A DNA stretch of 64,000 nucleotides from an uncultured Novosphingobium sp. (GCA_964609325.1 CAZSTP010000002.1:4984-68983), one strand, 5' to 3'. Positions 18,720-36,026 are shown, counted from the stretch's first letter. Numbers and translations are program-made. The notes: generated from the letters alone by a model not told the origin.

Positions 18720-18723
18720 CTGG

Positions 18724-21341: not shown

Positions 21342-21352
21342 GTCAGGTCTCC

Positions 21353-21395: not shown

Positions 21396-21410
21396 GGATT
21401 GTGCGGCTGG

Positions 21411-21626
21411 TCAGGCTACGCTTTGCGCTGCGCTAACGGCGCTGGTTGACGACACGAGGCGGCTTTCCAGCCAGCTGTCGAGATCGTTGCGGCGGTAGCG
21501 CACAGCTCCGCCAAGTTTCGCGAAGAACGGGCCTTCACCCGTCAACCTAAACCGCTCCAAAGTGGGCTTTCCGAGACGCACATACTGCGCCGCCTCGGTC
21601 GTCGTCATGATATCGGTGGTCATCAT
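21411..21626 (-). CDS. AlpA/excisionase-like helix-turn-helix protein
   Basis: 71 aa; MTTTEAAQYVRLGKPTLERFR...GP.F.KLGGAVRYRRNDLDSWL. Confidence 0.88.
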   Translation of the reverse strand: MMTTDIMTTTEAAQYVRLGKPTLERFRLTGEGPFFAKLGGAVRYRRNDLDSWLESRLVSSTSAVSAAQSVA

Positions 21627-21722
21627 CGGTTGCCTCCTATCTGTTTGGCAACCACTTCTCTTAATCAGGCTTTTTCGGAAATATACGCGAGTTATTTGCG
21701 CAAAAAATTCGCGTTGCCTGTA

Positions 21723-22283
21723 TCACTTCCCTCGACGCGTACCCGGGTCGCGCCGGGGCACCCTATCGAGGTGTTCCTTTAGTGCGTTTAGTTGCTCAGG
21801 GTTGGCCTGTGCCCATGCTGCCCCCATTTCAGTCAATACATGAGCCTCGGGGCCCTCCTTCACGTACTTTGCCCGCCCTTTCGAGACCGTCGAAGCCTTG
21901 CCAGCGTACCCTGCCTCGGCACCGACGGCGTTGGCGGTGATATTGTAGGCTTCCTCGGAGCCTATACCCAACGCACCTTGAAGAAACGCCGCATTTGGAT
22001 GAGCAACGCGTTCGGTGAATTTCGTCATGACCTTTGTCGGAAGCGCACCCGGCCCGTCAAGCCGACGCAACGCAACCCGTGCCGCGAGAACCTGTATCGT
22101 TGTCGGCAACGGCACGCCCTCACTGGTCAGCCTCCAGACCATAAGGTCCACCCAGTTGTCATCTTCGTCTTTGACGAATTCGTCTATATGCTCGAGCATC
22201 TCAAGGCCAAGCGCTGTACCTGCAAAAACTCCCAGCTCGCGCTCCAACTGCTCGACCAATGTTTCTCCTTGCCTTTCAGTCAT
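21723..22283 (-). CDS. Hypothetical protein, translationally coupled to the integrase
   Basis: ATG 22283 overlaps the integrase stop (ATGA); 186 aa with no motif I recognise. Confidence 0.6.
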   Translation of the reverse strand: MTERQGETLVEQLERELGVFAGTALGLEMLEHIDEFVKDEDDNWVDLMVWRLTSEGVPLPTTIQVLAARVALRRLDGPGALPTKVMTKFTERVAHPNAAFLQGALGIGSEEAYNITANAVGAEAGYAGKASTVSKGRAKYVKEGPEAHVLTEMGAAWAQANPEQLNALKEHLDRVPRRDPGTRRGK

Positions 22284-23587
22284 GCCCGTACCTCCAGCCG
22301 CACGATATTCGTCCGGTTTATAACGGCCTTCAGCCCCTCGACATGGGCAGACCATGCCTCCAATGCGCTGCGTTTCTCGGCAGCCCAGTCGTGGCGCTGG
22401 TAGACACCGGCCACGCCGCCCTTTGCACCGCTCACGTGGTTTAACACTGCCTCCGTTACTTCGAACCGAACGCCCAGCCTTTGTAGGCCTGTAGCCACCG
22501 TGCGCCGCAGGTCGTGTACTCGCCAATCTGGTAGCGTGCCTCCATCGTGCGCAGCAGCGATTGTATCGTCCAACGCCCGCTTCGCCTTGCTGAAGCCAGA
22601 AATAGAGTTCCTGCCCGTGGTAGTAAGGACATAGCCATTCTGCGGCCACTCACGGCCACCAGCCAAGCCATCCAGTTCCGCAATAGCAGCCTTCGATAGC
22701 GGTACAATGTGAGCGCTCCCGTTTTTTGCCCGATGGGCTGGGATGGTCCATACGCCAGCGCCACGGTCAAGTTCTGCCCAACAGGCACCCGCAACTTCCG
22801 ATTTGCGCTGCCCGGTTAGGATTAGCAGCCGATATAATGGCCCCCACGGCGCGGACAGGCTTTCGGAGGCAGTCCAGACAGACAGCAATTCTGCGTCCTC
22901 CAGCACTCTGTCCCGCGCGGCTGGCGCCTCAGGCTTGTCCATGGACAACAAAGGGTTTGCCGAGACGTACCGGCGCTTCATCGCCCAATTAAATAAGACA
23001 GAGGCATACGCAAACACGTTGCGGCGCATGGCGCGTTGCTGAACCGGGATTGCGTCAATAACAGCTTGAAGATCCGCATACTCGATGTGCGGCATGGGTT
23101 TGGTGCCCAACGCAGGCTTCAGGTGCCGCCTCACGACCATCTCTGCCATGTTCACGCTTGACGGCCTTCGGCCCTTCTCTAGCTCGTAGTGCTGCAGCCA
23201 AAGATCGGCCAACCGAGTGAACGCAAGATCAGCCTCGACGCGCTCCCGCTCTTGACGCTTGCGCACAGCCTCGTCCTTCGCTGCCAGTAACTCTGCTTCC
23301 TGCTCGCGCGGATCTGTGCCTGCCGCGACCATAGCGGCCAACTCCTGAGCCCGCTTGCGCGCTTGATCAGGCGTTAGTTCGCCGTGCCTACCGATAGTGT
23401 ACTTCTTGGGAGCCGTCTGAGATGCCTGCCCTCGCCGGGCTATGCGGTATCGATATAGATATACCTTGCCGCCCGCTGGAGTGACTTTCAAGCCGAAGCC
23501 CGGCAAACGATCATCCCAATAGGTCTCGTCACGATCGCTCGGCTGGACGCCATCGACAGAAACCTTGCTGATCTTGATCTTCGCCAT
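22280..23587 (-). CDS. Tyrosine recombinase/integrase with N-terminal arm-DNA-binding domain (P4-like)
   Basis: N-terminal YWDDRLPGFGLKV; catalytic residues appear intact: TGQR, HDLRRT, LNH, GVY. Confidence 0.95.
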   Translation of the reverse strand: MAKIKISKVSVDGVQPSDRDETYWDDRLPGFGLKVTPAGGKVYLYRYRIARRGQASQTAPKKYTIGRHGELTPDQARKRAQELAAMVAAGTDPREQEAELLAAKDEAVRKRQERERVEADLAFTRLADLWLQHYELEKGRRPSSVNMAEMVVRRHLKPALGTKPMPHIEYADLQAVIDAIPVQQRAMRRNVFAYASVLFNWAMKRRYVSANPLLSMDKPEAPAARDRVLEDAELLSVWTASESLSAPWGPLYRLLILTGQRKSEVAGACWAELDRGAGVWTIPAHRAKNGSAHIVPLSKAAIAELDGLAGGREWPQNGYVLTTTGRNSISGFSKAKRALDDTIAAAHDGGTLPDWRVHDLRRTVATGLQRLGVRFEVTEAVLNHVSGAKGGVAGVYQRHDWAAEKRSALEAWSAHVEGLKAVINRTNIVRLEVRA

Positions 23588-23618
23588 AGCAACCTTCGCT
23601 CTTACGCCTGCACACCTC

Positions 23619-23640
23619 AGGCATCAGATAGGCATCAGAT
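23619..23640. repeat. Tandem 11-bp direct repeat, probable integrase arm-type sites
   Basis: AGGCATCAGAT twice, exact, between the integrase start and the att core. Confidence 0.6.
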
Positions 23641-23741
23641 CAGATCATAGCAACGACAATTTCCGATACTCTGGGATAACAAGATCGTAGGTATTTAGGC
23701 AATTTCCTAAAAATGATGCTAGCTACACACAGTTATGCCAG

Positions 23742-23789
23742 TGATTTGTAATCAGGGGGCCAGGGGTTCGAATCCTCTAGCCGGCACCA
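23742..23789 (+). pseudogene. 3' fragment of tRNA-Thr(TGT), probable att site
   Basis: TGA-TTTGTAA-TCAGG, T-arm AGGGG-TTCGAAT-CCTCT, acceptor 3' strand AGCCGGC-A-CCA. No 5' acceptor strand or D-arm upstream, and the anticodon stem pairs over only 3 bp. Confidence 0.85.
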
Positions 23790-23811
23790 TCGCCTCGATT
23801 GCTTGACTTCG

Positions 23812-24951
23812 CTATTTCCAGATCGCGCGGGGCATGCGGAAAGGCAGCATTCCCTGCACAATGGTTGAACGGAACCGGTTGAGCGACAGGCTTTCATGCA
23901 CCGCTTCGACATTCTCGCCAAACAGCCGCGTCGAAAGCTTTGATCGCGCATAGAACGGGGCATCGACCCAGGTTTTGGCGACACGCGGCACATATCCCCG
24001 GTCAGCCCGGGTAAGGCGTTCGATCAGCCACGCGCTGCGGGGCAGACGTGCCGGGGCGGGCTGTTCGATATCGTGCCAGTTGCCCATCCGATCCAAACGC
24101 AGCGCCAGATCGAAAGGCGTGCCATCGCGCCGCTTGCCTTCGTAAAGCACCGCCACATCATTGCGCAGATGCGCACGCGACCAGTGCCAGTCGTTGAAAC
24201 CGTCTTCCAGCGCCTCATCGCCAAAATTGGAATCGAAATAGCCTGCGCCCGACCAGCGTAGGCCCGGGTCTGTCATCGAGACCTCGACATGGGCGCGCGG
24301 TGCCACGGGATGCCAGCGATGACGCCCTTCGGGATCAAGCGCAAAGGCCGTGTCGCCGATCATTTCGGGGCGCACCCGGATCGTGCCGCGCACTTTGTAG
24401 GGCAGCGGGGAGGAAACCTCGGCAATGTCGATCACCAGTGTTTCACCGTCCCAACGCATGGCGCTGGGGCCGACCGAGAAATGGTGCTTGGCACGATCAA
24501 CATCGCGCGCGGTACGCTCTGTCATCGCCCAAGCCGATCCGCGCGGACCATTGAGTGATATGTTGATGGCGCAATGGTTGTCGGGGCTGTGTCGCCCGCT
24601 AAGCTTGTAATACGGCGAAAAAACGCTGCCGACAAAGGCGATCACCGTCAGGCCATAAGCACCATCTGCACTGGTCGCATCAATATACCACCAGGCGTAG
24701 CCCCCCGGCGCAACCGCGCAATCAAAGCGTGGCCCTTGAGCCACCATACGGCGGCTGGTCGGACAGCGGACATAGGGCTCCTCACTTTGACGCAGCAGCA
24801 TCCAGGGATCCGTCGCCCGTTGGGGCGCGGGTTCGAGCACGCCGCCAACACGGGCAAGGCCGGTCCACAACGGGCTCCACCCTTCCAGAGAAACAGGCTC
24901 GCGTCGGACCGTCCGTGCAGCGAAATCGTGTTGAGCATAGTGCGCTTCCAT
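23812..24951 (-). CDS. crtC: Carotenoid 1,2-hydratase (hydroxyneurosporene synthase)
   Basis: GGYAWWYIDA, IAFVGSVFSPYY, HRWHP, GYFDSNFG, WHWSR, APFYARS, HESLSL.RF. Start uncertain (24951 or 24747). Confidence 0.85.
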   Translation of the reverse strand: MEAHYAQHDFAARTVRREPVSLEGWSPLWTGLARVGGVLEPAPQRATDPWMLLRQSEEPYVRCPTSRRMVAQGPRFDCAVAPGGYAWWYIDATSADGAYGLTVIAFVGSVFSPYYKLSGRHSPDNHCAINISLNGPRGSAWAMTERTARDVDRAKHHFSVGPSAMRWDGETLVIDIAEVSSPLPYKVRGTIRVRPEMIGDTAFALDPEGRHRWHPVAPRAHVEVSMTDPGLRWSGAGYFDSNFGDEALEDGFNDWHWSRAHLRNDVAVLYEGKRRDGTPFDLALRLDRMGNWHDIEQPAPARLPRSAWLIERLTRADRGYVPRVAKTWVDAPFYARSKLSTRLFGENVEAVHESLSLNRFRSTIVQGMLPFRMPRAIWK

Positions 24952-25057
24952 GTCCCGTTCCCCGCTCCAGCCATTCCATTGGCAACGCCTGACGACGGAC
25001 GATAGCCCGCACAGCAATGGCACCTTGCTCAAACGCCCGTTGACGCCATGCCGACTA

Positions 25058-25101
25058 TGTCCATTTTATTGGACATATACAACTGTCTAAATTTTTGGAT
25101 T
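25058..25101. promoter_or_regulatory. Paired PpsR/CrtJ-type boxes upstream of crtC
   Basis: TGTCCATTTTATTGGACA (25058-25075, TGT-N12-ACA), an 8-bp spacer, then degenerate TGTCTAAATTTTTGGATT (25084-25101). Confidence 0.75.
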
Positions 25102-25169
25102 ATGAGTCCGGTTATCATTGCGCAATTCTCATCGCTTGCCGCTGATGATGCGCCCGTTGCGCAGGGTTC

Positions 25170-26309
25170 CTATGGAGCCCCGTCCTCGTACCAACCCACA
25201 TCACGCGTGGCGACTTCCCCAAATGGCACCCGCTCGGCCATGGCCATGCGCAGGATCGGCCATGAGGTGAACATCATGCTAAGGAACGGCCAGGGATCGG
25301 ATGAATCCCAACTCACATCGCGCGTGGTGAACAATCGGGCAAGTTGGTCTTTGAAACCCTTGCGACGGAACATGGCCAATTGGGCTTCGGTCAAGCAGGC
25401 GTAGAATTGTTGCAAGTGCCGTTGGGGACGGACGCGTACCATCGCTTTGCCCAAGGGATCAAGCACGGCGCGGGCGATATCCTCGGCTTCCCAGAAGTGC
25501 AGGCCGCTGGTGGCGCGGGGGTTGCATTCGATGCCCCACACTGTGCCCGTGGCATCGACGATGAAATCGAAGGCGATGAAACCGCTCCACCCCGATGCGG
25601 TCACAAATGCCTCGATCCACGCGCTGATTGCGGGGCTCTCGACGCGCTCGAAACTGATGGCGACCGAACCTGCCATCACCCTGCCCCGATACACCATCGT
25701 GGCCACCGCGCGGCCATCGCGCGCGATGGTGCAACTGCTGAATTCGTGCCCCGCGATAAAGCGTTGTGCGACAGCCGGGGCGGCAGGATCGGCCTCGGGC
25801 AGAGCCACGCCTTTCACCAAGATGCGCACTCCGCGTCCCGAACAGGAAAACACTGGTTTGACCACCACATCGCTGCCTTGAGCCAATGCGGAAGCCTCCG
25901 GTGTACCCAGAGCGTACGTTTCGGGCACCGTAAGCCCTATCGCCCGCGCGGCCTCGATAAACCCGGCCTTGTCATGCAGCGCGACCACCTGCTCGGGCGG
26001 CATCGTGAACACGCGGACGCCGGGACCGAAAAGTTCACGTGCATGGGCCACGTGCATGGTCTCTTCGGAAACCGGCACGACCAGCTCGACGCATTCATCC
26101 GCTACGATCTTTGCGATGGCAGCATGATAGGCTGCCTTGCCCGCGCTGGGCGGCGGCACTGCGAATTCGCGCGCGACATGGCGCGATGCTCCCGTCAGTG
26201 TCCGGCCAAACGGATCAGCCACCAGTACCCGGCATCCGGCGCGGCTGAAGCCCCTTGCCAGATCAAGCGCCTTGGGCAAGCGTCCCAGCGTCAGCAAAAC
26301 AGTAGTCAT
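25170..26309 (-). CDS. ATP-grasp fold enzyme
   Basis: Start ATG 26309 overlaps the P450 stop (ATGA). LVVPVSEE, HDK..F, VVKPVFSCSGRGV, QRFIAG.E, FDFI, IECNPRATSG. Confidence 0.85.
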   Translation of the reverse strand: MTTVLLTLGRLPKALDLARGFSRAGCRVLVADPFGRTLTGASRHVAREFAVPPPSAGKAAYHAAIAKIVADECVELVVPVSEETMHVAHARELFGPGVRVFTMPPEQVVALHDKAGFIEAARAIGLTVPETYALGTPEASALAQGSDVVVKPVFSCSGRGVRILVKGVALPEADPAAPAVAQRFIAGHEFSSCTIARDGRAVATMVYRGRVMAGSVAISFERVESPAISAWIEAFVTASGWSGFIAFDFIVDATGTVWGIECNPRATSGLHFWEAEDIARAVLDPLGKAMVRVRPQRHLQQFYACLTEAQLAMFRRKGFKDQLARLFTTRDVSWDSSDPWPFLSMMFTSWPILRMAMAERVPFGEVATRDVGWYEDGAP

Positions 26310-27754
26310 GGTGCCACGCGGCTGACCCGCACCATGATCTGCTGCGCCGGGCGCGTGGTAAGCCGGGCTGCGGGACGTACGGCTTGGGGTTTGATGATCT
26401 CGAAATCGAAGCGTCGGAACAGCCGCGCGATCAGCAATACAGCTTCGGCCTGCGCAAAGGCTGCGCCCGCACATACTCTCGGGCCAAGGCCGAAGGGTAT
26501 GTAGGCGCCCGGGGTGAGTTCAGCTTCGCGTTCGGGCAGGAAGCGGTCTGGATCAAAGCGGTGCGGATCGCGCCAATAGCGCGCGTGGCGGTGCAGCACC
26601 CACGGCGCGACCATGACCAAAGCGCCGCGCCGCACTTTGCGTTCGCCAATCGTGGTTGCTTCGGTGGCAACGCGCGGCAGAAAGGTGATCGGCGGGTAGA
26701 GCCGCAAGGTTTCGCGAAAGACGTTGCGGATCGTCGGCAACTGCTTGGTCATCTCGAACGTTATCGGCTGCGAACTGCCCGCCAAAGCATGGATTTCGGC
26801 GCGGGCACGCGCAACCAGCGCGGGTTGCATGGCCATCAGATAAAAGGCCCATGTCAGCGCACTGGCGCTGGTTTCATGGCCGGCCAAAAACAACACGCCA
26901 AGCTGGTCGATCAGCTCTTCGCGGGTGAAGGCGGTTTGCGTGAAGTCATCGCGCGCGGCGACAACGGCTGCGGCGATATCATCAAACCGTTCGCCGTCGG
27001 GGCCAAGATGGGTGTCGAGCAAATCCCCCAGATGGCGGCGGATCGTGTTGCAGGCAGCCAATACGCTCTCGCTTTGCGGAACCTTGGTCCATGCCGGGTC
27101 CATGATCAGGCGACGGATTTCCACTTGCGCCACGCTGTGCTCGAAGATCGTGAACGCATCGAACACATCATGCGCGGCCTGCGTTTCAAGGCCGGTGCTG
27201 AACACGGTGCGGCAGATGATGTCCGCCGTCAGATGGCTCATCGCCAGATCGAGCGACAGGGCGGTTTGTCCGCTTGCATGCCGATCCAGCATATCCTCGC
27301 AGGCCTGCGCCCCTTCCTCCATCGCCGGAAAGGCGCGGTTGACCCGCATCATGGTGAAGGCCGGATCGATCATCCGGCGCTGGCGACGCCAGGTATCGCC
27401 CGACGACACGAAGATCGAATCCCCGATGAGAGGCGCCAAAGCATCCACCATCAAATCGCTCTTGGGAAAGATGCCTTCAGGATCGGACAGCACGCGGCGC
27501 ACCTGATCGGGCCGGTTAACGATCAGAATCTGGCGGCGCGAATAGCCCAGCGGGCCAACCTCGTTGCGATAGGCATTCGCGGGCAAGAGGCTGAGCAAAT
27601 CGCCATCACCGCGCAGTGCCACACGCAGCAGCGCCAGCACCGCAGCGCTGGCCTTTGGCCGTGGCGGCACAAAGGCGCGCTGCGACGTTCCGGATGGCTC
27701 GCGGCGGTTTGCCGGAAGGGGTGCGTTTCGGGTCAAAAGATCATCCATGAGCAT
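26306..27754 (-). CDS. Cytochrome P450
   Basis: I-helix AGHETS, ETLRLYPP (ExxR), FDPDRF, heme motif PFGLGPRVCAG. ATG 27754 behind GAAGGG. Confidence 0.95.
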   Translation of the reverse strand: MLMDDLLTRNAPLPANRREPSGTSQRAFVPPRPKASAAVLALLRVALRGDGDLLSLLPANAYRNEVGPLGYSRRQILIVNRPDQVRRVLSDPEGIFPKSDLMVDALAPLIGDSIFVSSGDTWRRQRRMIDPAFTMMRVNRAFPAMEEGAQACEDMLDRHASGQTALSLDLAMSHLTADIICRTVFSTGLETQAAHDVFDAFTIFEHSVAQVEIRRLIMDPAWTKVPQSESVLAACNTIRRHLGDLLDTHLGPDGERFDDIAAAVVAARDDFTQTAFTREELIDQLGVLFLAGHETSASALTWAFYLMAMQPALVARARAEIHALAGSSQPITFEMTKQLPTIRNVFRETLRLYPPITFLPRVATEATTIGERKVRRGALVMVAPWVLHRHARYWRDPHRFDPDRFLPEREAELTPGAYIPFGLGPRVCAGAAFAQAEAVLLIARLFRRFDFEIIKPQAVRPAARLTTRPAQQIMVRVSRVAP

Positions 27755-27760
27755 CCCTTC

Positions 27761-27803
27761 AATCAACTAAACTTTACACCGTAATTGTCCAGTGCAATAG
27801 ACA
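27761..27803. promoter_or_regulatory. Paired PpsR/CrtJ-type boxes in the divergent P450 / DUF2306-crtD promoter region
   Basis: Degenerate AATCAACTAAACTTTACA (27761-27778), a 7-bp spacer, then TGTCCAGTGCAATAGACA (27786-27803, TGT-N12-ACA). Confidence 0.75.
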
Positions 27804-27824
27804 CTCGGGAAAGAAGGGGACGCC

Positions 27825-28586
27825 ATGGATCTGTTCTTGTTCCAATGCCTGATTGCCGCACACATCGTGGCCGGAGCGACAGGCGCGGTGGCGTTCTGGA
27901 TCCCGGTGATCGGCCGCAAGGGTAGCGTCAATCATCGCAAATGGGGCCGAGTGTTTACCCGCACGATCCTGTTCACCGGATGCCTTGCCGTGCTGATGAG
28001 CCTGTTTACGCTGGCCAATCCGATGGGCGTCCACCCTCACCTCGTCGGCCGCTTCGATTCCGGATTTGTGCGCGGCATCTTCGGCTGGATGATGCTGCAC
28101 AACGCGATCCTGACGATCAATCTGGCGTGGTACGGCTGGTTGTGCGTGATCAACCGCCGCAATGTTGCTGCCAACCGCACATGGCTCAATATCGGCCTGC
28201 AGTATGCGGTGATGATCGCAGCGGTGGTCTGTGCATGGGAAGGCGCGCAAATCAACCAGCCGCTGATGATGGCGATTGCCGCGGTCGGGATGGCCACCGG
28301 CATTACCAATCTGGTGTTCCTTTATGCGCGCAATCCCTCGCCGGTCGATTGGCTGAAAGAACATGTCAAGGCGTTGGTAGGGGCCGGTATCTCGGTTTAC
28401 ACTGCGTTTCTGGCCTTTGGCGCTGTGCGGCTGGCACCCTCGCTGGCGCTGCAACCGGCGATGTGGGCTGTGCCGCTCAGCGTGGGTCTGGCCATCCTGA
28501 TCTTCCATCGCATGCGCATCGATAAAGAGGCAGGACTGGGCCTGTTCCGGCTGCTGCGCCAACGGCAGACCGTCGATGCAGACTGA
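27825..28586 (+). CDS. Polytopic membrane protein, DUF2306-like
   Basis: RBS AAGGGG; about 6-7 hydrophobic segments; HIVAG...H.KWGRVF pattern. Family name from recall. Confidence 0.7.
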   Translation: MDLFLFQCLIAAHIVAGATGAVAFWIPVIGRKGSVNHRKWGRVFTRTILFTGCLAVLMSLFTLANPMGVHPHLVGRFDSGFVRGIFGWMMLHNAILTINLAWYGWLCVINRRNVAANRTWLNIGLQYAVMIAAVVCAWEGAQINQPLMMAIAAVGMATGITNLVFLYARNPSPVDWLKEHVKALVGAGISVYTAFLAFGAVRLAPSLALQPAMWAVPLSVGLAILIFHRMRIDKEAGLGLFRLLRQRQTVDAD

Positions 28587-28592
28587 CCTGCA

Positions 28593-30110
28593 ATGACACG
28601 CACGACACGCCGCGTTGTCGTGGTCGGGGCCGGTATGGGCGGGCTTGCGGCTGCGGCTGATCTGGCACGCAGCGGCGCCGCGGTCACCGTGATCGAGCGG
28701 GCGCAAACTTGCGGTGGCAAGATGCGCCAGATCATGGCGGGCGGCAGGCCGGTGGATGCCGGACCCACCGTATTCACCATGCGCTGGATATTCGAGGGCC
28801 TGTTTGCCGATGCGGGCGAAAGGCTGGACGACCATCTGGAACTGATCGCGGCGACAACTTTGGCGCGGCATGCTTGGCGCAGCGGCGGTACGCTGGATCT
28901 TTTTGCCGACATTGCGCAATCCGCCGATGCCATCGGCACCTTTGCCGGGGCAGACGAAGCGCGCGGCTATTTGGCCTTTTGCGCGCGCGGCAAAGATATC
29001 TACGCCACGCTGGCCAGGGACTTCATCGCCTCAGAGCGTCCGTCCGTGCCCGGTCTGGTGGCCCGGCTTGGCCTTGCCCGCCTGCCCGATTTGTGGCGAA
29101 CGATGCCGATGCGCACTTTGTGGGGCGCGCTCGGCGATCATTTCAAGGACCCGCGCCTGCGCCAATTGTTTGGCCGATATGCCACTTATGTGGGCGCATC
29201 GCCGTGGTCAGCTCCCGCCACCCTGATGCTGATCGCGCACGTTGAACAGAACGGCGTCTGGCTGGTCAAGGGCGGCACCCATCGTGTGGCACAGGCAATC
29301 CAGAGCCTTGCACAGCGCCAGGGCGCGCAGTTCCGTTTTGGCGTACAGATGGACCGGATCGTGATCGAGAATGGCCGCGTTGCCGGTGTTATGCTAGACA
29401 CGGGCGAGCGGCTGGATGCAGATGCCGTGGTCTATAACGGAGACATCTCCGCCCTGACCGCAGAGGAACGCCCGGTCCCGGCCACATCGCCCGCCGCACG
29501 GTCGCTCTCGGCTGTAACGTGGTGCCTTTCGGCGCGGACGACCGGGTTTGATCTGGCGCATCACAATGTGTTCTTCGCCGAAGACTATGCCGACGAATTC
29601 ACATCCATCTTTCGCCATCGCCGGATAACTTCCGCACCCACTGTCTATCTGTGCGCACAAGACAGGGGCGAAGGCAGTGCCCATCCGGAAGGTACGCCCG
29701 AACGCATGCTGGCGCTGATTAATGCCCCCGCCGACGGCGACCGGGCACCGCTTGATCAAGCTGCGATTGCCAATCTTGGCGCACGGGCCTTTGGCTTGAT
29801 GGAATCGTGCGGGTTGCAAATCGAGCCGGGCGATGATCCGACCGTGACAACGCCAACCGGGTTCGAGGCCCTGTTCCCGGCAAGCGGCGGCGCGCTCTAT
29901 GGCCGTGCCAACCATGGCATGATGGGGAGTTTTGCGCGGGCAGGAGCATCGGGCAAAGTGCCGGGGCTCTATCTGGCAGGCGGAAGCGTCCATCCCGGCC
30001 CCGGCATCCCGATGGCCACAATGTCCGGGCGCATCGCGGCCGCGCGTATGTTGGCGGATTGGGCAGGCAACCGCAGGACTGTCAGCATTCCTGTCGGTGA
30101 AGGCTTCTAA
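28593..30110 (+). CDS. crtD: 1-hydroxycarotenoid 3,4-desaturase (CrtI/CrtD family)
   Basis: VVGAGMGGL, GGKMR, DAGPTVFTM, FGRYATYVG, HHNVFF, GGSVHPGPGIPMATMSG (CrtD-like rather than CrtI-like); crtC is nearby. Confidence 0.82.
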   Translation: MTRTTRRVVVVGAGMGGLAAAADLARSGAAVTVIERAQTCGGKMRQIMAGGRPVDAGPTVFTMRWIFEGLFADAGERLDDHLELIAATTLARHAWRSGGTLDLFADIAQSADAIGTFAGADEARGYLAFCARGKDIYATLARDFIASERPSVPGLVARLGLARLPDLWRTMPMRTLWGALGDHFKDPRLRQLFGRYATYVGASPWSAPATLMLIAHVEQNGVWLVKGGTHRVAQAIQSLAQRQGAQFRFGVQMDRIVIENGRVAGVMLDTGERLDADAVVYNGDISALTAEERPVPATSPAARSLSAVTWCLSARTTGFDLAHHNVFFAEDYADEFTSIFRHRRITSAPTVYLCAQDRGEGSAHPEGTPERMLALINAPADGDRAPLDQAAIANLGARAFGLMESCGLQIEPGDDPTVTTPTGFEALFPASGGALYGRANHGMMGSFARAGASGKVPGLYLAGGSVHPGPGIPMATMSGRIAAARMLADWAGNRRTVSIPVGEGF

Positions 30111-30117
30111 CCCGCGA

Positions 30118-31332
30118 TCAGCGTGGCGCACCGGTTTGCGGCGGACGTTCGGGCAAGGTCAGCGGATTGAGCGCAGGCTCTCCCAATACCGTGGCGATGG
30201 CTTTGAAAAACGGCACGGGGGGTTTGCCGGTCAGCACCCGCAGGCGATCGGCCAAAGTTGATTTTCCGGCATAGAAGCGTTCGATCAGCGCGGCGTTCAG
30301 ACGGTAAAACCGTTGCAGCACGACATAGCGCAAATGGGGTGCAGCCGTTGCGAACAGCATCTTGGTCAACATGCGGTAGAATCCGCCTGCGCGCCAATGC
30401 TGCCCTGCCCAGCCCCGGCTCCACACTGCCAAAGCCCTGCCCGAAACATCCTTCTGCCGCGCCAGATCGAGCGCAAAGGCCAGTGCCAGCGGGAAGGAAT
30501 AGCCGGTCAACGGGTGCAGCAGACCGGCGCGAACGCCTGCCAGTGCAACGTCGGGCCTTTCATGCACTGCACGAAACGCCTCCCAGTCACCACTGCCCAC
30601 CACCGGCAGGCAACCGCTTTCCTCGCCCAGAATCTCGGCCACTTGCCATCCCGCATCGGCACAATAGGCGGCGATCCGTTCGCGCAGCAGTGGCGCGTCT
30701 ACTTCTGGCCCATCGGCATAGTAAGTGTCTTCGACGAAGACTTCGTTGGCAGAAAACGGCAAGCAATAGACAAAGCGATAGCCATCGTGCTGCGCCACCG
30801 TACCATCCATGACGATCGGGCGTTCCAGCCCATGCGGTTCGGCAGTGCGGACCAATTGGCCAAGGAATTTCTGCCATCCGCCCGCCATATGCGGCAAACC
30901 CGCCGAACCACGCGCATCAATCACCGCGCCAGCTTCAATCATGCGCCCATCGCCAAGCGTGATCCGGTTCGCGGTGACATCGGCAATCTCGCAGCCACAC
31001 AAGACCGCGTCTGCCGGCAGGGCACTGCGTACGGCGGCATCGAGCCGCGCGCTCGTGATGCTGTGATAAGGCGTGCGCAATTGACGGCGACCGCGCGGGA
31101 AGCGCACTTCGTAGTCATCCCACCGCGCCGCGATCAGCGGTTCAACCAGCGCGGTCCCGCCTTCGGGCAAATCTGTCGCAAAAAATGACCAGACATGATT
31201 GCCACCAAGCCGATCGTCGCGCTCTAGAACAAGCACGCGCAGTTCAGGCCGCAACCTGGCCAGCGCCAGTGCGATCAATCCTCCGGCGAGCCCCCCGCCG
31301 AGCACTGCAATGTCTGTGCCACGGTCATTCAT
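30118..31332 (-). CDS. crtY: Lycopene beta-cyclase
   Basis: GGGLAGGLIA, GGNHVWSF, QKFLG, RFVY.LP, EDTYY, HPLTGYS, RFYRL, RFYAG. Confidence 0.92.
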   Translation of the reverse strand: MNDRGTDIAVLGGGLAGGLIALALARLRPELRVLVLERDDRLGGNHVWSFFATDLPEGGTALVEPLIAARWDDYEVRFPRGRRQLRTPYHSITSARLDAAVRSALPADAVLCGCEIADVTANRITLGDGRMIEAGAVIDARGSAGLPHMAGGWQKFLGQLVRTAEPHGLERPIVMDGTVAQHDGYRFVYCLPFSANEVFVEDTYYADGPEVDAPLLRERIAAYCADAGWQVAEILGEESGCLPVVGSGDWEAFRAVHERPDVALAGVRAGLLHPLTGYSFPLALAFALDLARQKDVSGRALAVWSRGWAGQHWRAGGFYRMLTKMLFATAAPHLRYVVLQRFYRLNAALIERFYAGKSTLADRLRVLTGKPPVPFFKAIATVLGEPALNPLTLPERPPQTGAPR

Positions 31333-31569
31333 TCGATGTGAGCCTTAACATGGCCTCCGGTTAATGCAACTGCGCCCCATTACTGCGCCTGCTTCGGGGA
31401 TACCGGACAAGAAGAAGCATGATTGGCCTGCATGTGCGGGGTACAGCTTATGGCGTGTCTGTATAACAAGCCCCACCGCCCCAGGTTATCAACTCCACTT
31501 TTCGGTCGCTGGCCAGAGCTGCAGATTGACTCTATGGCACGTAAAACGCCAACATACCCGGATGCTTTC

Positions 31570-32754
31570 ATGACCAATGATCCAGCCACACTCAACCAGC
31601 AAGGCATGTTGGCATTGCGTCAAGGAGACGCAGCAGGAGCGATCAAGGCCTTTGCTGCGGCGGTTGCGGCAGATCCTGCCGAGGCTATTTTGCACTACAA
31701 TCTTGCCAACGCGTACGCCTTGGCCGGTAACGCGGCGGAGCAGCTGGAGGCGCTAAACGCCGCCCTGGATTGCGATCCCTACATGCCGCACGCACTGCTT
31801 TCGCGCGGCAAGTTGGCCGAGGCTCAGGGCTTTGCAACTGCAGCACTCTCAGATTTCAAGCGCCTGCTGGCCGCCGTGCCCGAAGGCGATACCACTGGCG
31901 GCCCCGGTTTTCAGGCAGGTCTGGTTCATGCGCGGGCAGCAGTAGCGCGCGATACGGCCAATCTGGCGAAACGGCTGGATGCGGTGCAGGCAGAAGCAGA
32001 CGCAGCTGCCACACCAGCCGACGCCGAACGTTTTCGCCATGCGGTTGATCTGCAATTGGGCCGTCGTCGTGCCTATGTTCACCAACCCTTGGTTCTCAAC
32101 TATCCTTATCTGCCTGCGATCCAGTTCTTTGATCGCGGTCTATTCCCTTGGCTGTCGCAACTGGAATCAGCCACCCCGATCATCCGCGAAGAGTTGAAGG
32201 CGCTGCTGAGCAAAGGCGGTGGCGGTTTCGCACCCTATGTCCGCTATCCGCGCGGCGCGCCGGTAAACCAGTGGAGCGAGCTCAATCACAGCAATGCCTG
32301 GGCCGCGACCTTCTTCATCGAGCATGGCGTGCCCAACCCTGCTATGCGCGAACATTGTCCGCAGACGGCGGCGCTGCTTGAAACGCTACCGCTGTTCAAT
32401 CTTCCGGGACGCGGACCGGTCGCCTTCTTCTCCCTGCTAAAGCCCGGCACTGTCATTCCACCACACACCGGTGCAACCAACATCCGTTCGATTGTTCACC
32501 TGCCGCTTATCGTGCCGCAGGGCTGCACCTTCCGCGTTGGCAACGAAACGCGGCCATGGATCGAGGGCGAGGCGTTCGTGTTTGATGATACGATCGATCA
32601 TGAGGCGAAAAATCCCACGACCGAACTGCGCGCCCTGCTGATTATTGATACATGGAATCCGTTCATCAGTGAAGCGGAGCGCCAGCTAATTGGCAACTGG
32701 ATGCGCGAACTTGACGCGCATGGACAAGGTCCGGGAAATTTTTCAGCAGCCTGA
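31570..32754 (+). CDS. TPR-fused aspartyl/asparaginyl beta-hydroxylase family protein
   Basis: N-terminal TPR-like helices; FSLLKPG..IPPHTG.TN, HLPLIVP, FDDTIDHEA. Start uncertain (31570 or 31534). Confidence 0.88.
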   Translation: MTNDPATLNQQGMLALRQGDAAGAIKAFAAAVAADPAEAILHYNLANAYALAGNAAEQLEALNAALDCDPYMPHALLSRGKLAEAQGFATAALSDFKRLLAAVPEGDTTGGPGFQAGLVHARAAVARDTANLAKRLDAVQAEADAAATPADAERFRHAVDLQLGRRRAYVHQPLVLNYPYLPAIQFFDRGLFPWLSQLESATPIIREELKALLSKGGGGFAPYVRYPRGAPVNQWSELNHSNAWAATFFIEHGVPNPAMREHCPQTAALLETLPLFNLPGRGPVAFFSLLKPGTVIPPHTGATNIRSIVHLPLIVPQGCTFRVGNETRPWIEGEAFVFDDTIDHEAKNPTTELRALLIIDTWNPFISEAERQLIGNWMRELDAHGQGPGNFSAA

Positions 32755-33055
32755 GGATCAAATCGCGTCGCGAGGACAAACCCAGCGAAGACCACTATTT
32801 TGATCACTGGTGGCAAACTGGTTACAAGTTTGTTGCAACATTGCCACACCTTTACGAGGATGTATGCGAGTGCCCTTAAGCACGTTTGACTTGGCGCGAT
32901 AGTTACAACAGTAACAGCACCAGCTTTAACCGAAAGCTTAACTTGCGCTGTACAGCCTCGGCTGAACCGGCGGCAACGAGGGAACAATGGATAGCGATGT
33001 TGCACCGCCACCGGTCATCGTCGCACATCTATTTTTTAAAAAGAAGGATAAACAC

Positions 33056-36007
33056 GTGAGGACTAACACTCTGAAGCGGCGGGCGCTTTTTGGCAGCTCC
33101 GCCCTCGTCTCCATCGCGCTTCTGGCCAGCCAGCCAGCCTTCGCGCAGCAGGCCTCAGCAACTGAAGAAGCTGCTGACGATGCCGCTGGCGAGCCACAAA
33201 CCATCGTCGTCACGGGCAGCTTGCTCAAGAACCCGAATCTTGTGCTTTCCAGCCCTGTGAACGTGGTCGGTGAAAAAGAAATCGCCACCCGCCAGATCAA
33301 CAACGCAGAACAGCTCATTCGCGATCTGCCAGGCGTAGTCCCCGGCATCGGTTCGGCTGTTAACAACGGCAACGGCGGTTCAGCCACCGTCAACCTCCGT
33401 GGTCTCGGCAGCCAGCGCAATCTGGCCCTGATCGACGGCGACCGTATCGTACCATCAGGTTCGGGCGGCACCTTCGACCTTAACAACGTGCCGCTGGCCC
33501 TCGTCAGCCGCGTTGACATCCTCACCGGCGGTGCTTCGACCACTTATGGTGCTGACGCTGTTTCGGGCGTCGTGAACTTTGTCACAAAGTCCAACTTCAG
33601 CGGCCTTGATGCGCGCGTGTCGTATGGTCTGACCGAGCGTGGCGACGGCAACGCTTTGCGTGCCGACGTAACCTTGGGCGGTGATTTCGCCGAAGGCCGT
33701 GGTAACGCTGTGATCAGCATGGGCTACCAGAAGACCGACCCTGTCTATCAGGGTGATCGCGACTTCTCGCTGTTCCAGATCAACTCGTTCAACGGCCGCG
33801 CTGCCGGTGGTTCGCCAACCGGCACGCCAACCTCGTTCTGCCTTGATGACATCTGCGATGCCAACTATGTACAGAACAACGCCAATGGCACCGGTTTTGT
33901 TACTCCGGATCCAGACGGCTTCAACTTTGCACCGTTCAATATCTTCCAGACCCCGTATGAACGCTACAACCTCCTCGGCCAGGCAAAGTACGAGATTACC
34001 GACAACATCGAAGCCTATGGCCGTGGCATGTTCTCGAAGAACACCGTCAGCACGATCGTTGCGCCGTCGGGTATCTTCGGTGAAACCCTGACCACCAACA
34101 TCAACAACCCGTTCATCTCGGCTGGCCAACGCGCCGCAATTTGCGCCGCAAACCCTGCGATTGACTGCACTCCCGGTTCGACCGCAACGTTCGACCTTCC
34201 GGCTGTCTATCGCCGTACGGTTGAAGTTGGTCCTCGCATAAGCGACTACGTAACGACTATGTTCGACGTAAAGTTCGGTGTGCGTGGCAAGATCACAGAC
34301 ACGATCAACTTTGACGTGAACGCTGCACGCGGTGAATCGAACCAGACCCAGACGCTGAGCGGCTACACGCTGAAATCGCGCGTTAACCAAGCTCTGCTGG
34401 CTGATAACGCGACGACCTGCCGTACCACTTCCGGTGGCTGCGTTCCGCTGAACCTGTTTGGCGGCGAAGGCTCGATCACGCCTGCGATGGTCAGCTTCAT
34501 CCAAGGCGTTTCGACTGTTGCGGTTGATACCGGACTCACCCAGGTGCGCGGCGTCGTCAACGGCGACCTCGGCTTCACTTCGCCGGGCGCTGCGACACCG
34601 ATCAACTTCGCTGCTGGTGCGGAATATCGCAACTACACCTTCCGCCGCACTCCTGACAACCTGAGCCAGGTTCCGGGTGAACTCGGCGGCGGCGGCGGCG
34701 CGGTGCTGCCCTTCACGGGTGGTTACAACGTAACTGAAGGCTTTGCCGAAGTTAACGTACCACTGGTCGAAGACAAGCCGTTCTTCAACAACCTGTCGCT
34801 CGAAGCCGGTATCCGTCAATCGAAGTACAAGGTTGATGCTGCAGGCGATCCGTCGTTCAACACCACCACCTGGAAGGTTGGCGCGAACTGGGAACCAACC
34901 GCCGGTCTGAAACTGCGCGGCGGTTATCAGCGTGCAGTTCGTGCACCGAACATCGGCGAACTGTTCGCTCCATCGGTTACGAGCCTCACCAACCTCGCGG
35001 TTGACCCATGCTCGGGCACGAAGGCACAAGGTAATGCAAACCTCACCGCGGTCTGCATCGCACAGGGTGCAACTGCAGCCCAGATCGCTGCAGGTTCGAT
35101 CCAGGATCCGGCAGCAGGCCAAGCCAACGCCACCGGCGGCGGCAACCCGCTCCTGAACCCGGAAGTGGCAGACACCTTCACCATCGGTACGGTCTTTGCT
35201 CCTACGTTCCTGCCGGGCTTCAGCATGACCGTTGACTACTTCAACGTGAAGGTTAACGCTGCCGTATCGCAGCCGACCCCATCGGACGTAATGAATCCGT
35301 GCTTCCAGAACTTGTCAGCTACTTCGGCTGCAAGCACTGCCTGCACCAGCATTCGTCGTAACCCGGTGAACGGTCGCCTGTCCGGCCCGACCGGCACCAC
35401 CTTCGGTCTGCCTACCCCGCTGTCAAACCTTGGCCGTATCGATACCAGCGGTATCGATCTCACCGCCGCTTATGCGACAGATGTGGGCTTTGCGCGGTTG
35501 TTGTTGAACCTCAATGGTACGTACACCATCGACAACTACTTCCAGGCAACGCCGACCTCGATCAACCGCGAATGCGTTGGCCAGTACTCGGTTAACTGCG
35601 GCGCGATCCAGCCGAAGTGGGCACATAACCTGCGCACCACGCTGGACTTCGATGGCGACATCAACGTTTCGTTGCTGTGGCGCTACATGAGCGGTGTTGA
35701 ATACGAACGCCGCTTGTTCGAAACACGCAAGGCGTTCAATGGTGCCATCGTTGGTAGCGGTGTGCTTGTTGGCCAACAGCGTGATTTCAACCAGATCAGC
35801 GCTTTCAGCTACTTTGATCTGTCGGCTGGCTTCAAGATCATGGAGACTTTCACACTGGATCTCCTCGTCGCCAACCTGTTTGACCGCAAGCCACCAATCG
35901 TCGGCTCGACTCTGGGCACCACCGCCCAGAACAGCGGCAACACCTATCCGTCAACTTATGACGCACTGGGTCGCCGCTTCACCGTCACCGTCGGCATGCG
36001 CTTCTGA
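33056..36007 (+). CDS. TonB-dependent receptor
   Basis: GTG start behind AAGGA; signal peptide, IVVTGS, VNLRGLG..R.L.LIDG plug, C-terminal MRF. Confidence 0.93.
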   Translation: MRTNTLKRRALFGSSALVSIALLASQPAFAQQASATEEAADDAAGEPQTIVVTGSLLKNPNLVLSSPVNVVGEKEIATRQINNAEQLIRDLPGVVPGIGSAVNNGNGGSATVNLRGLGSQRNLALIDGDRIVPSGSGGTFDLNNVPLALVSRVDILTGGASTTYGADAVSGVVNFVTKSNFSGLDARVSYGLTERGDGNALRADVTLGGDFAEGRGNAVISMGYQKTDPVYQGDRDFSLFQINSFNGRAAGGSPTGTPTSFCLDDICDANYVQNNANGTGFVTPDPDGFNFAPFNIFQTPYERYNLLGQAKYEITDNIEAYGRGMFSKNTVSTIVAPSGIFGETLTTNINNPFISAGQRAAICAANPAIDCTPGSTATFDLPAVYRRTVEVGPRISDYVTTMFDVKFGVRGKITDTINFDVNAARGESNQTQTLSGYTLKSRVNQALLADNATTCRTTSGGCVPLNLFGGEGSITPAMVSFIQGVSTVAVDTGLTQVRGVVNGDLGFTSPGAATPINFAAGAEYRNYTFRRTPDNLSQVPGELGGGGGAVLPFTGGYNVTEGFAEVNVPLVEDKPFFNNLSLEAGIRQSKYKVDAAGDPSFNTTTWKVGANWEPTAGLKLRGGYQRAVRAPNIGELFAPSVTSLTNLAVDPCSGTKAQGNANLTAVCIAQGATAAQIAAGSIQDPAAGQANATGGGNPLLNPEVADTFTIGTVFAPTFLPGFSMTVDYFNVKVNAAVSQPTPSDVMNPCFQNLSATSAASTACTSIRRNPVNGRLSGPTGTTFGLPTPLSNLGRIDTSGIDLTAAYATDVGFARLLLNLNGTYTIDNYFQATPTSINRECVGQYSVNCGAIQPKWAHNLRTTLDFDGDINVSLLWRYMSGVEYERRLFETRKAFNGAIVGSGVLVGQQRDFNQISAFSYFDLSAGFKIMETFTLDLLVANLFDRKPPIVGSTLGTTAQNSGNTYPSTYDALGRRFTVTVGMRF

Positions 36008-36026
36008 TCCTTTCGGAAGAGCAGAC

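What the first reader, a model, noticed from the sequence alone, without database searches (positions are those of the whole stretch)
23812..31332. Candidate new carotenoid-tailoring module: crtC, crtD and crtY interleaved with a P450, an ATP-grasp enzyme and a DUF2306-like membrane protein under shared PpsR-type boxes
Seen: three non-canonical genes sit between crtC and crtD. P450 and ATP-grasp are translationally coupled (ATGA), DUF2306-like and crtD are 6 bp apart, and both internal promoter regions carry near-identical operator pairs. Known: CrtC plus CrtD convert an acyclic psi end to a 1-hydroxy-3,4-didehydro end and CrtY makes a beta ring; together this is the skeleton of monocyclic pigments such as bacteriorubixanthin(al) of aerobic phototrophic Erythrobacter. 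I know of no standard bacterial crt pathway that includes an ATP-grasp enzyme or this membrane protein. Inference: the six genes form one light/oxygen-regulated unit making a monocyclic carotenoid with an extra oxidation and possibly a ligated amine or amino acid.
Basis: partly seen in the sequence, partly recalled or inferred. Interest (0 to 1): 0.85.

Follow-up and report, generated by a model that had tools for sequence, protein, structure and literature searches.

The report
Phototroph-linked carotenoid module: P450, ATP-grasp, membrane protein
Three uncharacterised genes (a cytochrome P450, an ATP-grasp ligase and a histidine-rich membrane protein) sit with a special copy of the carotenoid desaturase gene crtD in this and about 200 other bacteriochlorophyll-containing species, so they very probably make a modified photosynthetic carotenoid that has not yet been assigned to any genes.

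Summary
All six genes are intact at the stated coordinates. The ATGA overlap, the 6-bp gap and the two operator pairs are real.

The host is a bacteriochlorophyll phototroph closest to Novosphingobium sp. AAP83. It has pufLM, ppsR and a crtF in the photosynthesis gene cluster.

The conserved core is not six genes. It is three: membrane protein, P450 and ATP-grasp. Usually a distinct, module-specific clade of CrtD comes with them. This unit recurs in at least four gene orders, in Sphingomonadales, Acetobacterales, a Hyphomicrobium MAG and Woeseiaceae-type Gammaproteobacteria, often next to the puf operon.

48 of 50 carrier genomes have pufLM. Only 1 of 63 pufLM-positive Sphingomonadaceae in an even sample carries it. 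It is therefore an accessory, horizontally moving, phototrophy-linked module.

crtC is a frequent neighbour. crtY is a lineage-specific neighbour without operator boxes.

The P450's nearest solved relatives are the plant carotenoid hydroxylases CYP97A3 and CYP97C1. The ATP-grasp fold is that of carboxylate-amine ligases. The membrane protein has no solved relative.

No paper in the searchable library describes the module. The chemistry (methyl oxidation followed by ATP-dependent ligation) is inferred, not shown.

The parts
23812..24951 (-). crtC, carotenoid 1,2-hydratase. The gene call is 379 aa; the ORF is open up to the TTG at 25032.
   Evidence: NF045922 scores 308.7 bits over residues 130-403. 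PF27123 CrtC is on record for the identical 379-aa product in metagenome contigs. It is the only crtC in the genome.
25058..25101 (-). Operator pair and promoter of crtC: perfect palindrome TGTCCATTTTATTGGACA, then 8 bp, then a degenerate box (TGTCTAAATTTTTGGATT).
   Evidence: The only sigma-70-like site in 23600-31500 (TTTAGA-17-TAAAAT, minus strand, 25091-25063) lies inside the pair. A near-identical design stands upstream of crtF on PGC contig C134.
25170..26309 (-). ATP-grasp enzyme of the PRK06849-like subfamily, 379 aa.
   Evidence: PF02655 hit. NF005315 scores 253 bits, below the 406-bit cut-off. The AF2 model has pLDDT 80. Foldseek gives probability 1.0 to PylC, RizA, BL00235, YwfE, PurK and biotin carboxylase. 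K151 and E261-x-N263-P-R265 are invariant.
26306..27748 (-). Cytochrome P450, 480 aa. Its stop overlaps the ATP-grasp start (ATGA).
   Evidence: PF00067 scores 245 bits. The best PDB sequence hits are CYP97A3/LUT5 at 2e-47 and CYP97C1 at 1.6e-33. The overlap was read.
27761..27803 (+). Operator pair in the 76-bp divergent promoter between the P450 and the membrane protein: AATCAACTAAACTTTACA, then 7 bp, then TGTCCAGTGCAATAGACA.
   Evidence: This is the most conserved part of the intergenic region in 9 aligned Sphingomonadales loci. A TGT-N12-ACA box is present in 25 of 25 Sphingomonadales loci.
27825..28586 (+). 253-aa protein with seven predicted transmembrane helices and invariant H13, H70, H180 and H228. 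It is a distant DUF2306 relative.
   Evidence: Alignment A2. The AF2 model has pLDDT 79 and seven long helices. No PDB fold match: best E = 0.13, TM < 0.35. DUF2306 is the top weak hit in 13 of 15 homologues.
28593..30110 (+). crtD, 1-hydroxycarotenoid 3,4-desaturase, of the module-specific clade.
   Evidence: NF045637 scores 648.8 bits against a cut-off of 580. The tree puts it in a clade supported at 99/96 with all module-adjacent CrtDs, apart from PGC-type CrtDs, including the one from the same genus. It is the only crtD in the genome.
30118..31332 (-). crtY, lycopene beta-cyclase. It is a neighbour, not part of the conserved module.
   Evidence: TIGR01789 scores 455.6 bits. It is adjacent to the module only in Sphingomonadales loci. 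There is no TGT-N12-ACA box in 31333-31422. A second crtY lies with crtI and crtB on contig C213.

Best explanation
This is an accessory, horizontally mobile carotenoid-tailoring module of bacteriochlorophyll phototrophs. It is expressed from PpsR-type repressible promoters together with crtC.

Shown by comparative genomics: the membrane protein, the P450 and the ATP-grasp enzyme form a unit. A dedicated CrtD clade usually joins it, and the unit is found almost only in genomes with reaction-centre genes.

Inferred mechanism:
1. CrtC and the module's CrtD build a 1-hydroxy-3,4-didehydro psi end. The PGC-encoded CrtF can methylate it.
2. The CYP97-like P450 oxidises the carotenoid. This is most likely a methyl or allylic carbon, taken to an alcohol and possibly on to an aldehyde or acid.
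3. The ATP-grasp enzyme activates a carboxylate as an acyl phosphate and joins it to an amine or hydroxyl.
4. The histidine-rich seven-helix membrane protein is co-translated with CrtD. It works in the membrane as a redox or haem/metal partner, or as a further carotenoid-modifying enzyme.

The product would be the carotenoid of the RC-LH1 complex or a photoprotective one.

The confidence given (0.75) is for 'carotenoid-tailoring module tied to phototrophy'. For the specific sequence 'oxidation to an acid, then ligation' I give about 0.25.
For: Synteny:
- All 80 genome loci keep membrane protein, P450 and ATP-grasp wherever the flank allows. A CrtD of 61-96% identity is adjacent in most.
- The unit survives at ATP-grasp 40%, P450 59%, membrane protein 44-47% and CrtD 50% identity. 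It appears in at least four gene orders, including one co-directional overlapping operon P450-ATPgrasp-Memb-CrtD.
- The association ends at about 280 bits (L098).

Link to phototrophy:
- The module is next to bchZ-pufBALMC in Falsiroseomonas, Woeseiaceae and others.
- 48 of 50 carrier genomes have pufLM, against 63 of 301 in an even Sphingomonadaceae sample.

The module-type CrtD is a separate clade, supported at 99/96. It replaces the PGC crtDC in this lineage.

The P450's nearest solved relatives are carotenoid hydroxylases. The ATP-grasp fold and catalytic motifs are intact.

Regulation: the operator pairs are conserved and match the crtF operator on the PGC contig, and ppsR is present.

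Literature: the genes for cross-conjugated aldehyde or carboxyl carotenoids of phototrophs are still unassigned (PMC10604819, PMC8342508, PMC12817894). No paper combines these gene types.
Against: The P450 is only about 30% identical to CYP97A3, and the margin over non-carotenoid P450s is modest: 2e-47 against 5e-40 for CYP46A1.

The ATP-grasp has no sequence-level relative of known function, so its substrate is unknown.

No natural carotenoid amide, or ATP-grasp step in a carotenoid pathway, is known to me.

Gene clustering in a PGC could also reflect a role in membrane, bacteriochlorophyll or quinone biology.

Species in the tallies are related to each other, so the counts overstate independence.
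Confidence: 0.75

Rival explanations
1. Only the P450 acts on carotenoids, as a simple hydroxylase or ketolase (for example at C-2 of the psi end, in place of CrtA, or at C-3 of a beta ring as CYP97A3 does). The ATP-grasp enzyme and the membrane protein serve another task of the photosynthetic membrane, such as lipid, peptide or cofactor modification, and are merely co-regulated.
For: The P450 is the best conserved member: 59% identity where the ATP-grasp has fallen to 40%. Earlier notes of this scan report related P450s among crt genes without an ATP-grasp (untested here). The gammaproteobacterial versions add a GNAT-like gene after the ATP-grasp. That pairing is typical of amino-acid or peptide chemistry.
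Against: P450 and ATP-grasp overlap by ATGA here. They stay adjacent in every arrangement seen, including a single four-gene operon far from other PGC genes. The membrane-protein gene is 6 bp from crtD here and overlaps it in that operon.
Confidence: 0.15
2. One reading: six genes, including crtY, make a monocyclic bacteriorubixanthin(al)-type pigment, with the P450 forming the aldehyde and an amine then being ligated.
For: crtC, crtD and crtY are adjacent here and in the closest relatives. Sphingomonad phototrophs are known to use bacteriorubixanthinal (PMC12654162). The aldehyde-forming enzyme is unknown (PMC8342508).
Against: crtY is absent from the module's neighbourhood outside Sphingomonadales and has no operator box. 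62 of 62 other pufLM-positive Sphingomonadaceae, from 32 genera, lack the ATP-grasp and any P450 orthologue; the best match is 38% identical. An aldehyde gives an ATP-grasp enzyme nothing to activate.
Confidence: 0.07
3. The trio has nothing to do with carotenoids. It could be a P450/ATP-grasp peptide (RiPP) or small-molecule pathway that rides in the photosynthesis gene cluster.
For: The P450 also matches a RiPP P450 model (NF050147, 157 bits), and ATP-grasp enzymes are common in RiPP pathways.
Against: Both model scores are far below their cut-offs. The graspetide model hit is E = 8e-4 over 40 residues. No precursor ORF is evident in the short intergenic regions. The unit keeps a dedicated CrtD clade and is restricted to phototrophs.
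Confidence: 0.03

Closest known systems
CYP97A3 (LUT5) and CYP97C1 (LUT1), plant plastid carotene ring hydroxylases
   Same: They are the best solved sequence relatives of the P450 (2e-47 and 1.6e-33, aligned over about 400 residues). They share the AGHETS I-helix, ExxR and FGxGxRxCxG motifs. Like them, this P450 has a carotenoid context.
   Different: Identity is only roughly 30% (by eye), below the 40% rule for a CYP family. This enzyme is bacterial, has no ring-specific context in most carriers, and is paired with an ATP-grasp enzyme.
Bacterial carotenoid P450s: Thermus CYP175A1 (beta-carotene hydroxylase) and Deinococcus CYP287A1 (C-2 hydroxylase of the deinoxanthin pathway, which also uses a 1,2-hydratase, a 3,4-desaturase and a cyclase). 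From my own knowledge; reviewed in PMC11306087.
   Same: A P450 tailoring step is added to a hydratase, desaturase and cyclase set.
   Different: Those pathways have no ATP-grasp or DUF2306-like partner and are not linked to photosynthesis genes. Sequence relationship was not tested here.
Spirilloxanthin-pathway crtC-crtD-crtF unit of photosynthesis gene clusters under PpsR/CrtJ control
   Same: CrtC, CrtD and PGC CrtF are all present. Paired TGT-N12-ACA boxes about 8 bp apart overlap the -35 and -10 hexamers, as at the PGC crtF promoter of the same genome.
   Different: crtC and crtD have left the PGC here. The CrtD belongs to a separate clade, and three extra genes are inserted.
Carboxylate-amine ATP-grasp ligases: PylC, and the L-amino-acid ligases RizA, BL00235 and YwfE/BacD
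   Same: They are the top Foldseek matches (E about 1e-13, probability 1.0). The ATP-binding Lys and the E-x-N Mg site are conserved.
   Different: TM scores are only 0.47-0.59 and identity 12-19%. A PDB sequence search with a profile finds nothing. A roughly 80-residue helical C-terminal extension is present. The substrate is unknown.
Oxidised-methyl carotenoids of phototrophs whose genes are unknown: rhodopinal, bacteriorubixanthinal and gemmatoxanthin (19'-al, 16-oic acid, 1'-methoxy)
   Same: These are light-harvesting carotenoids of bacteriochlorophyll phototrophs. They need O2-dependent methyl oxidation on a CrtC/CrtD/CrtF-type backbone, and no enzyme is assigned to that step (PMC8342508, PMC10604819).
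   Different: No producer of these pigments could be shown to carry the module. Gemmatimonas could not be searched, and other phototrophic Sphingomonadaceae lack it.

Membership tests
CrtD, 1-hydroxycarotenoid 3,4-desaturase (NCBIfam NF045637) | Score above the curated equivalog cut-off, with an N-terminal FAD-binding GxGxxG | tested here: met
   648.8 bits against a cut-off of 580, covering the full length 8-489. VVVVGAGMGG is at residues 8-17.
CrtD | Orthology with the PGC-borne crtD of relatives | tested here: not met
   It is 48% identical to the PGC CrtD of a same-genus genome. It falls in a separate, module-specific clade supported at 99/96.
CrtC, carotenoid 1,2-hydratase (NF045922 / PF27123) | Score above the curated cut-off | tested here: inconclusive
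   NF045922 scores 308.7 bits, below the 400-bit cut-off, although 274 of 278 profile positions align. PF27123 CrtC is precomputed for the identical product.
CrtY, lycopene beta-cyclase (TIGR01789) | Score above the cut-off | tested here: met
   455.6 bits against 215.2.
Cytochrome P450 (PF00067) | Pfam score, Cys-ligand loop FxxGxRxCxG and ExxR | tested here: met
   245.5 bits. FGLGPRVCAG and ETLR are present.
CYP97 family | At least 40% identity to a member (P450 nomenclature rule, from my own knowledge) | tested here: not met
   The alignment to CYP97A3 shows roughly 30% identical positions. This was not counted exactly.
ATP-grasp superfamily (PF02655) | Pfam score, fold, ATP-binding Lys and E-x-N Mg site | tested here: met
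   32.2 bits against 23.2. Foldseek gives probability 1.0 to many ATP-grasp enzymes. K151, D248, E261 and N263 are invariant.
PRK06849 (NF005315) equivalog | Score above the cut-off | tested here: not met
   252.9 bits against 406.
DUF2306 (PF10067) | Score above the gathering cut-off of 31.6 bits | tested here: not met
   The window protein scores 10.4 bits, E = 0.72. It is the top weak hit in 13 of 15 homologues, best 6.5e-5. UniRef labels several homologues as DUF2306.
PpsR/CrtJ regulon | Paired TGT-N12-ACA palindromes overlapping the promoter, and a ppsR gene in the genome | tested here: met
   Boxes. ppsR (TIGR02040) scores 365 bits against 275 on contig C369.
PpsR/CrtJ regulon | PpsR binding and light- or oxygen-dependent repression | not testable with these tools

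The most novel reading that the evidence does not exclude
The ATP-grasp enzyme performs the first known ATP-dependent ligation in carotenoid biosynthesis. It would convert a P450-made carotenoic acid into an amide or ester conjugate. The histidine-rich membrane protein would be a new membrane redox or haem partner of the P450 or CrtD. The product would be a new class of light-harvesting or photoprotective carotenoid in freshwater aerobic phototrophs.
Probability: 0.25. Interest if true: 0.85.

Novelty: new variant of a known kind. Interest (0 to 1): 0.72.

Why it matters
Aerobic anoxygenic phototrophs are abundant in lakes. Which carotenoid sits in their light-harvesting complexes sets both their light capture and their protection against singlet oxygen.

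Recent reviews state that the enzymes which oxidise carotenoid methyl groups in phototrophs are unknown. The pigments concerned are rhodopinal, bacteriorubixanthinal and gemmatoxanthin.

This module offers concrete candidate genes, present in several cultured strains in which knock-outs and HPLC-MS are routine. It may add two enzyme types, an ATP-grasp ligase and a DUF2306-like membrane protein, that have never been linked to carotenoid chemistry.

It is also a clear case of a small pigment-tailoring unit moving between orders and displacing the resident crtDC genes of the photosynthesis gene cluster.

Tried and rejected
- PDB sequence search with the ATP-grasp profile: no hit at E <= 0.01.
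- Foldseek of the membrane-protein model: only chance-level matches to GPCRs and designed helical proteins.
- Literature searches: combinations of carotenoid, ATP-grasp, P450, crtD, PGC and bacteriorubixanthinal gave no paper on these genes.
A search seeded with a distant ATP-grasp named Woeseiaceae, Hyphomicrobium and Rhizobiaceae MAGs but no Gemmatimonas.
- Naming distant ATP-grasp clusters: almost all are unnamed metagenome proteins.
- P450 paralogues of 34-38% identity in four module-free phototrophic Sphingomonadaceae: their surroundings hold no relatives of the membrane protein, ATP-grasp or CrtD. I did not follow them further.
- RiPP reading: rejected for lack of a precursor ORF and because of the dedicated CrtD clade.
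- crtY as part of the module: rejected on synteny and the absence of boxes.

Full report
**What is in the window**

ORF listing and profile searches give the following genes.

| Gene | Coordinates | Evidence |
|---|---|---|
| crtC | 23812-24951 (-) | ORF open to 25032 |
| ATP-grasp | 25170-26309 (-) | PF02655; PRK06849-like, 253 bits, below cut-off |
| P450 | 26306-27748 (-) | PF00067, 245 bits |
| Membrane protein, 253 aa | 27825-28586 (+) | no Pfam hit at E <= 0.01 |
| crtD | 28593-30110 (+) | NF045637, 649 bits vs cut-off 580 |
| crtY | 30118-31332 (-) | TIGR01789, 456 bits |

- The same gene calls (379, 379, 480, 253, 505 and 404 aa) appear on identical metagenome contigs.
- The ATGA stop/start overlap of P450 and ATP-grasp was read directly, as was the 6-bp gap between the membrane-protein gene and crtD.
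- The layout is three or four transcription units on two strands: crtC alone; P450 then ATP-grasp; membrane protein then crtD, divergent from the P450; and crtY, convergent on crtD.

**The host is a bacteriochlorophyll phototroph**

- The genome is 3.86 Mb in 657 contigs and 91% complete.
- It has pufL and pufM and ppsR above the curated cut-off.
- A CrtF-type methyltransferase lies on a contig (C134) that is collinear with the PGC of Novosphingobium sp. AAP83.
- AAP83 is the nearest named relative. Its ATP-grasp is 90% identical, and its P450 and CrtD are 96% identical.
- The window holds the only crtC and the only crtD of the genome. A second crtY sits with crtI and crtB on contig C213.

**Operators**

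- Perfect TGT-N12-ACA palindromes lie at 25058-25075 and 27786-27803.
- Each has a second, half-degenerate box 8 or 7 bp away.
- In both cases the order, reading towards the downstream gene (crtC, or membrane protein-crtD), is: degenerate box, spacer, perfect box, then about 20 bp, then the start codon.
- The motif class is not enriched in the window as a whole: 11 found against 9.4 expected.

Four things make these two pairs meaningful.
- The only sigma-70-like site in 23600-31500 lies inside the crtC pair. Its -35 is in the degenerate box and its -10 is in the palindrome. The other pair has TTTACA in the matching place.
- A TGT-N12-ACA box is present in the membrane-protein/P450 spacer of all 25 Sphingomonadales loci. 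In an alignment of nine of them, TTTACA-N7-GTCCARTGSRATAG is the invariant core, while the flanks are free to vary.
- The PGC contig C134 carries the same half-sites. Upstream of crtF it has nearly the same pair design: TGTCAAAAAGATTGGACA, a 7-bp spacer (TATAAAA), then TGTAAAGG....
- ppsR is present.

PpsR binding itself is inferred. Most Acetobacterales loci lack an exact box. crtY has none.

- A scan of one genome per species found 207 relatives of the ATP-grasp. The best 80 loci were fetched.
- tblastn with the window's proteins shows membrane protein, P450 and ATP-grasp together in every locus with enough flank.
  - A CrtD of 61-96% identity lies next to the membrane-protein gene in most.
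  - A CrtI is usually beside that.
  - CrtC is often just after the ATP-grasp.
- Carriers include:
  - Novosphingobium: AAP83, fuchskuhlense, sediminis, NDB2Meth1, PASSN1.
  - Sphingomonas sp. 37zxx.
  - Falsiroseomonas, Roseomonas, Roseicella, Paracraurococcus ruber, Plastoroseomonas and Dankookia.
- In Falsiroseomonas HC035 the order is bchZ-pufBALMC-DedA-crtI-<crtD-<memb-P450>-ATPgrasp>.
- In Novosphingobium PASSN1 the module abuts crtY-crtI-crtB.

More distant ATP-grasp representatives came from a full-library profile search.
- Their identities to the window's proteins are about 40% for the ATP-grasp, 59% for the P450, 44-47% for the membrane protein and 50% for CrtD.
- They still keep all four genes next to the puf operon. 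This holds in Woeseiaceae-type and other Pseudomonadota MAGs. There, crtI lies between the membrane-protein gene and crtD, and a GNAT-like gene follows the ATP-grasp.
- One lineage has a single overlapping operon, P450-ATPgrasp-Memb-CrtD, with no other pigment genes within 8 kb.
- A Hyphomicrobium MAG has ATP-grasp, P450 and CrtD at a contig end.
- At about 280 bits the association stops.

**Distribution**

- 48 of 50 carrier genomes have pufL and pufM. The two without are MAGs.
- In an even sample of 301 Sphingomonadaceae from 112 genera, 63 have pufLM, but only the window's own genome has the ATP-grasp.
- None of the other 62 has an orthologue of the P450; the best match is 38% identical.
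- Carriage therefore predicts phototrophy. 20 of 22 sphingomonad carriers are phototrophs, against a 21% base rate. My binomial estimate is about 4e-12, ignoring relatedness.
- Most phototrophs nevertheless lack the module.

**A dedicated CrtD, and horizontal transfer**

- A same-genus phototroph without the module has the classical crtF<>crtD-crtC in its PGC. Its CrtD is 48% and its CrtC 53% identical to the window's.
- The PGC of AAP83 has no crtC or crtD near crtF.
- An ML tree of 65 CrtD sequences, rooted with CrtI, puts all module-adjacent CrtDs in one clade, including the distant gammaproteobacterial type (99/96 support).
- Three sets fall outside that clade: the same-genus PGC CrtD; the second CrtDs of two Acetobacterales genomes that carry both types; and the crtC-linked CrtDs of Paracraurococcus, Roseicella and Dankookia.
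- Inside the clade, the Sphingomonadales sequences nest among Acetobacterales and Rhodospirillales sequences.
- The cluster's G+C (0.615-0.632) is a little above that of its flanks.
- This fits acquisition of the unit by transfer and loss of the resident PGC crtDC in this lineage.

**What the three proteins look like**

- P450.
  - The best solved relatives are Arabidopsis CYP97A3/LUT5 (2e-47) and CYP97C1 (1.6e-33). CYP46A1, CYP3A4 and CYP102 lie somewhat behind.
  - Identity is around 30%, so it is not a CYP97 member.
  - NCBIfam's nearest models are terpene-oxidising P450s (albaflavenone monooxygenase, pentalenene oxygenase), far below cut-off.
  - No redox partner is encoded nearby.
- ATP-grasp.
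  - A profile search of the PDB finds no sequence relative.
  - The AF2 model (pLDDT 80) matches PylC, the L-amino-acid ligases, PurK, PurT, PurD and biotin carboxylase at TM 0.47-0.59.
  - The ATP-binding Lys and the IECNPR Mg site are invariant.
  - About 784 clusters at 50% identity match the profile at E <= 1e-30, so it is one branch of a large family with no known function.
- Membrane protein.
  - It has seven long helices (pLDDT 79) and no solved fold relative.
  - H13, H70, H180, H228, K178 and E179 are invariant.
  - It has a weak but consistent likeness to DUF2306 (UniRef labels).

**Mechanism**

Shown: the gene unit, its link to crtD and crtC, its link to photosynthesis genes, and its promoter architecture.

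Inferred:
- CrtC, CrtD and PGC CrtF make the spirilloxanthin-type end group.
- The P450 adds oxygen, and the ATP-grasp activates a carboxylate for ligation.
- The membrane protein is a redox or haem partner, or a further modifying enzyme.

I hold the general statement (carotenoid tailoring tied to phototrophy) at about 0.75. I hold the specific 'acid then ligation' chemistry at about 0.25.

crtY is not part of the conserved unit.

**Comparison with what is known**

- Reviews state that the genes for rhodopinal are unknown (PMC10604819).
- No enzyme is known for the C-19 or C-20 aldehyde or for the carboxyl group of gemmatoxanthin (PMC8342508). A 2025 paper on Gemmatimonas photosystems assigns none (PMC12817894).
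- Searches for papers combining these gene types found nothing.
- Carotenoid P450s exist (CYP97, CYP175A1, CYP287A1). I know of no ATP-grasp enzyme or DUF2306-like protein in any carotenoid pathway. That last point rests on my own knowledge.
- Earlier notes of this scan on other genomes describe the same module and reach a like reading. They are not independent evidence, but I reproduced their synteny claim here.

**Verdict**

The finding is real and well supported as a gene module. It is new as a variant of carotenoid tailoring clusters. Its product and chemistry are unknown. It can be tested directly in several cultured strains.

Noticed in passing
window 23763-23790: A tRNA 3'-end fragment (GGGGTTCGAATCCTCTAGCCGGCACCA) lies between the integrase gene (22280-23587, minus strand) and the crtC stop. 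It looks like an att remnant of the small integrative element at about 18.6-23.8 kb. ARAGORN finds no whole tRNA in 16000-25000.
   Followed up: partly
own genome contig C213 (outside the window): A second crtY (50% identical to the window's) lies with crtI and crtB, so the genome has two lycopene cyclase genes.
   Followed up: partly
L096 9180-10199, L097 9110-10129, L099 9136-10197, L101 9095-10147: In the gammaproteobacterial-type versions of the module, a 339-353-aa protein follows the ATP-grasp gene; those of L096, L097 and L099 give weak GNAT (Acetyltransf_1) matches, that of L101 none on record. A conserved 94-aa ORF without a Pfam match lies beside the membrane-protein gene in L096, L097 and L099. 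In L099 a putidaredoxin-reductase-like gene precedes that ORF.
   Followed up: partly
metagenome contig of P0126 (no DNA held): P450, ATP-grasp, membrane protein and CrtD form one co-directional operon with overlapping ends, away from any other pigment gene.
   Followed up: no
window 31423-40432: A TPR-fused Asp/Asn beta-hydroxylase, a TonB-dependent receptor and a TPR-sulfotransferase follow crtY. The first two are conserved in the same place in AAP83 (L009). No link to the carotenoid genes was seen, although sulfated carotenoids are known from related phototrophs.
   Followed up: no
L103/L106 (G149:C35) and L102/L107 (G162:C3): Full-length paralogues of the P450 (36-38% identity) occur in module-free phototrophic Sphingomonadaceae, with no membrane-protein, ATP-grasp or CrtD relatives nearby. 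Their role is unknown.
   Followed up: partly
L092 11174-12762; L100 7203-7748: A cytochrome b (Ni_hydr_CYTB) gene lies next to the ATP-grasp gene in Novosphingobium PASSN1, paired with a molybdopterin oxidoreductase in MsrPQ fashion, and in a Hyphomicrobium MAG. This may be chance, or a hint at a membrane redox partner.
   Followed up: no
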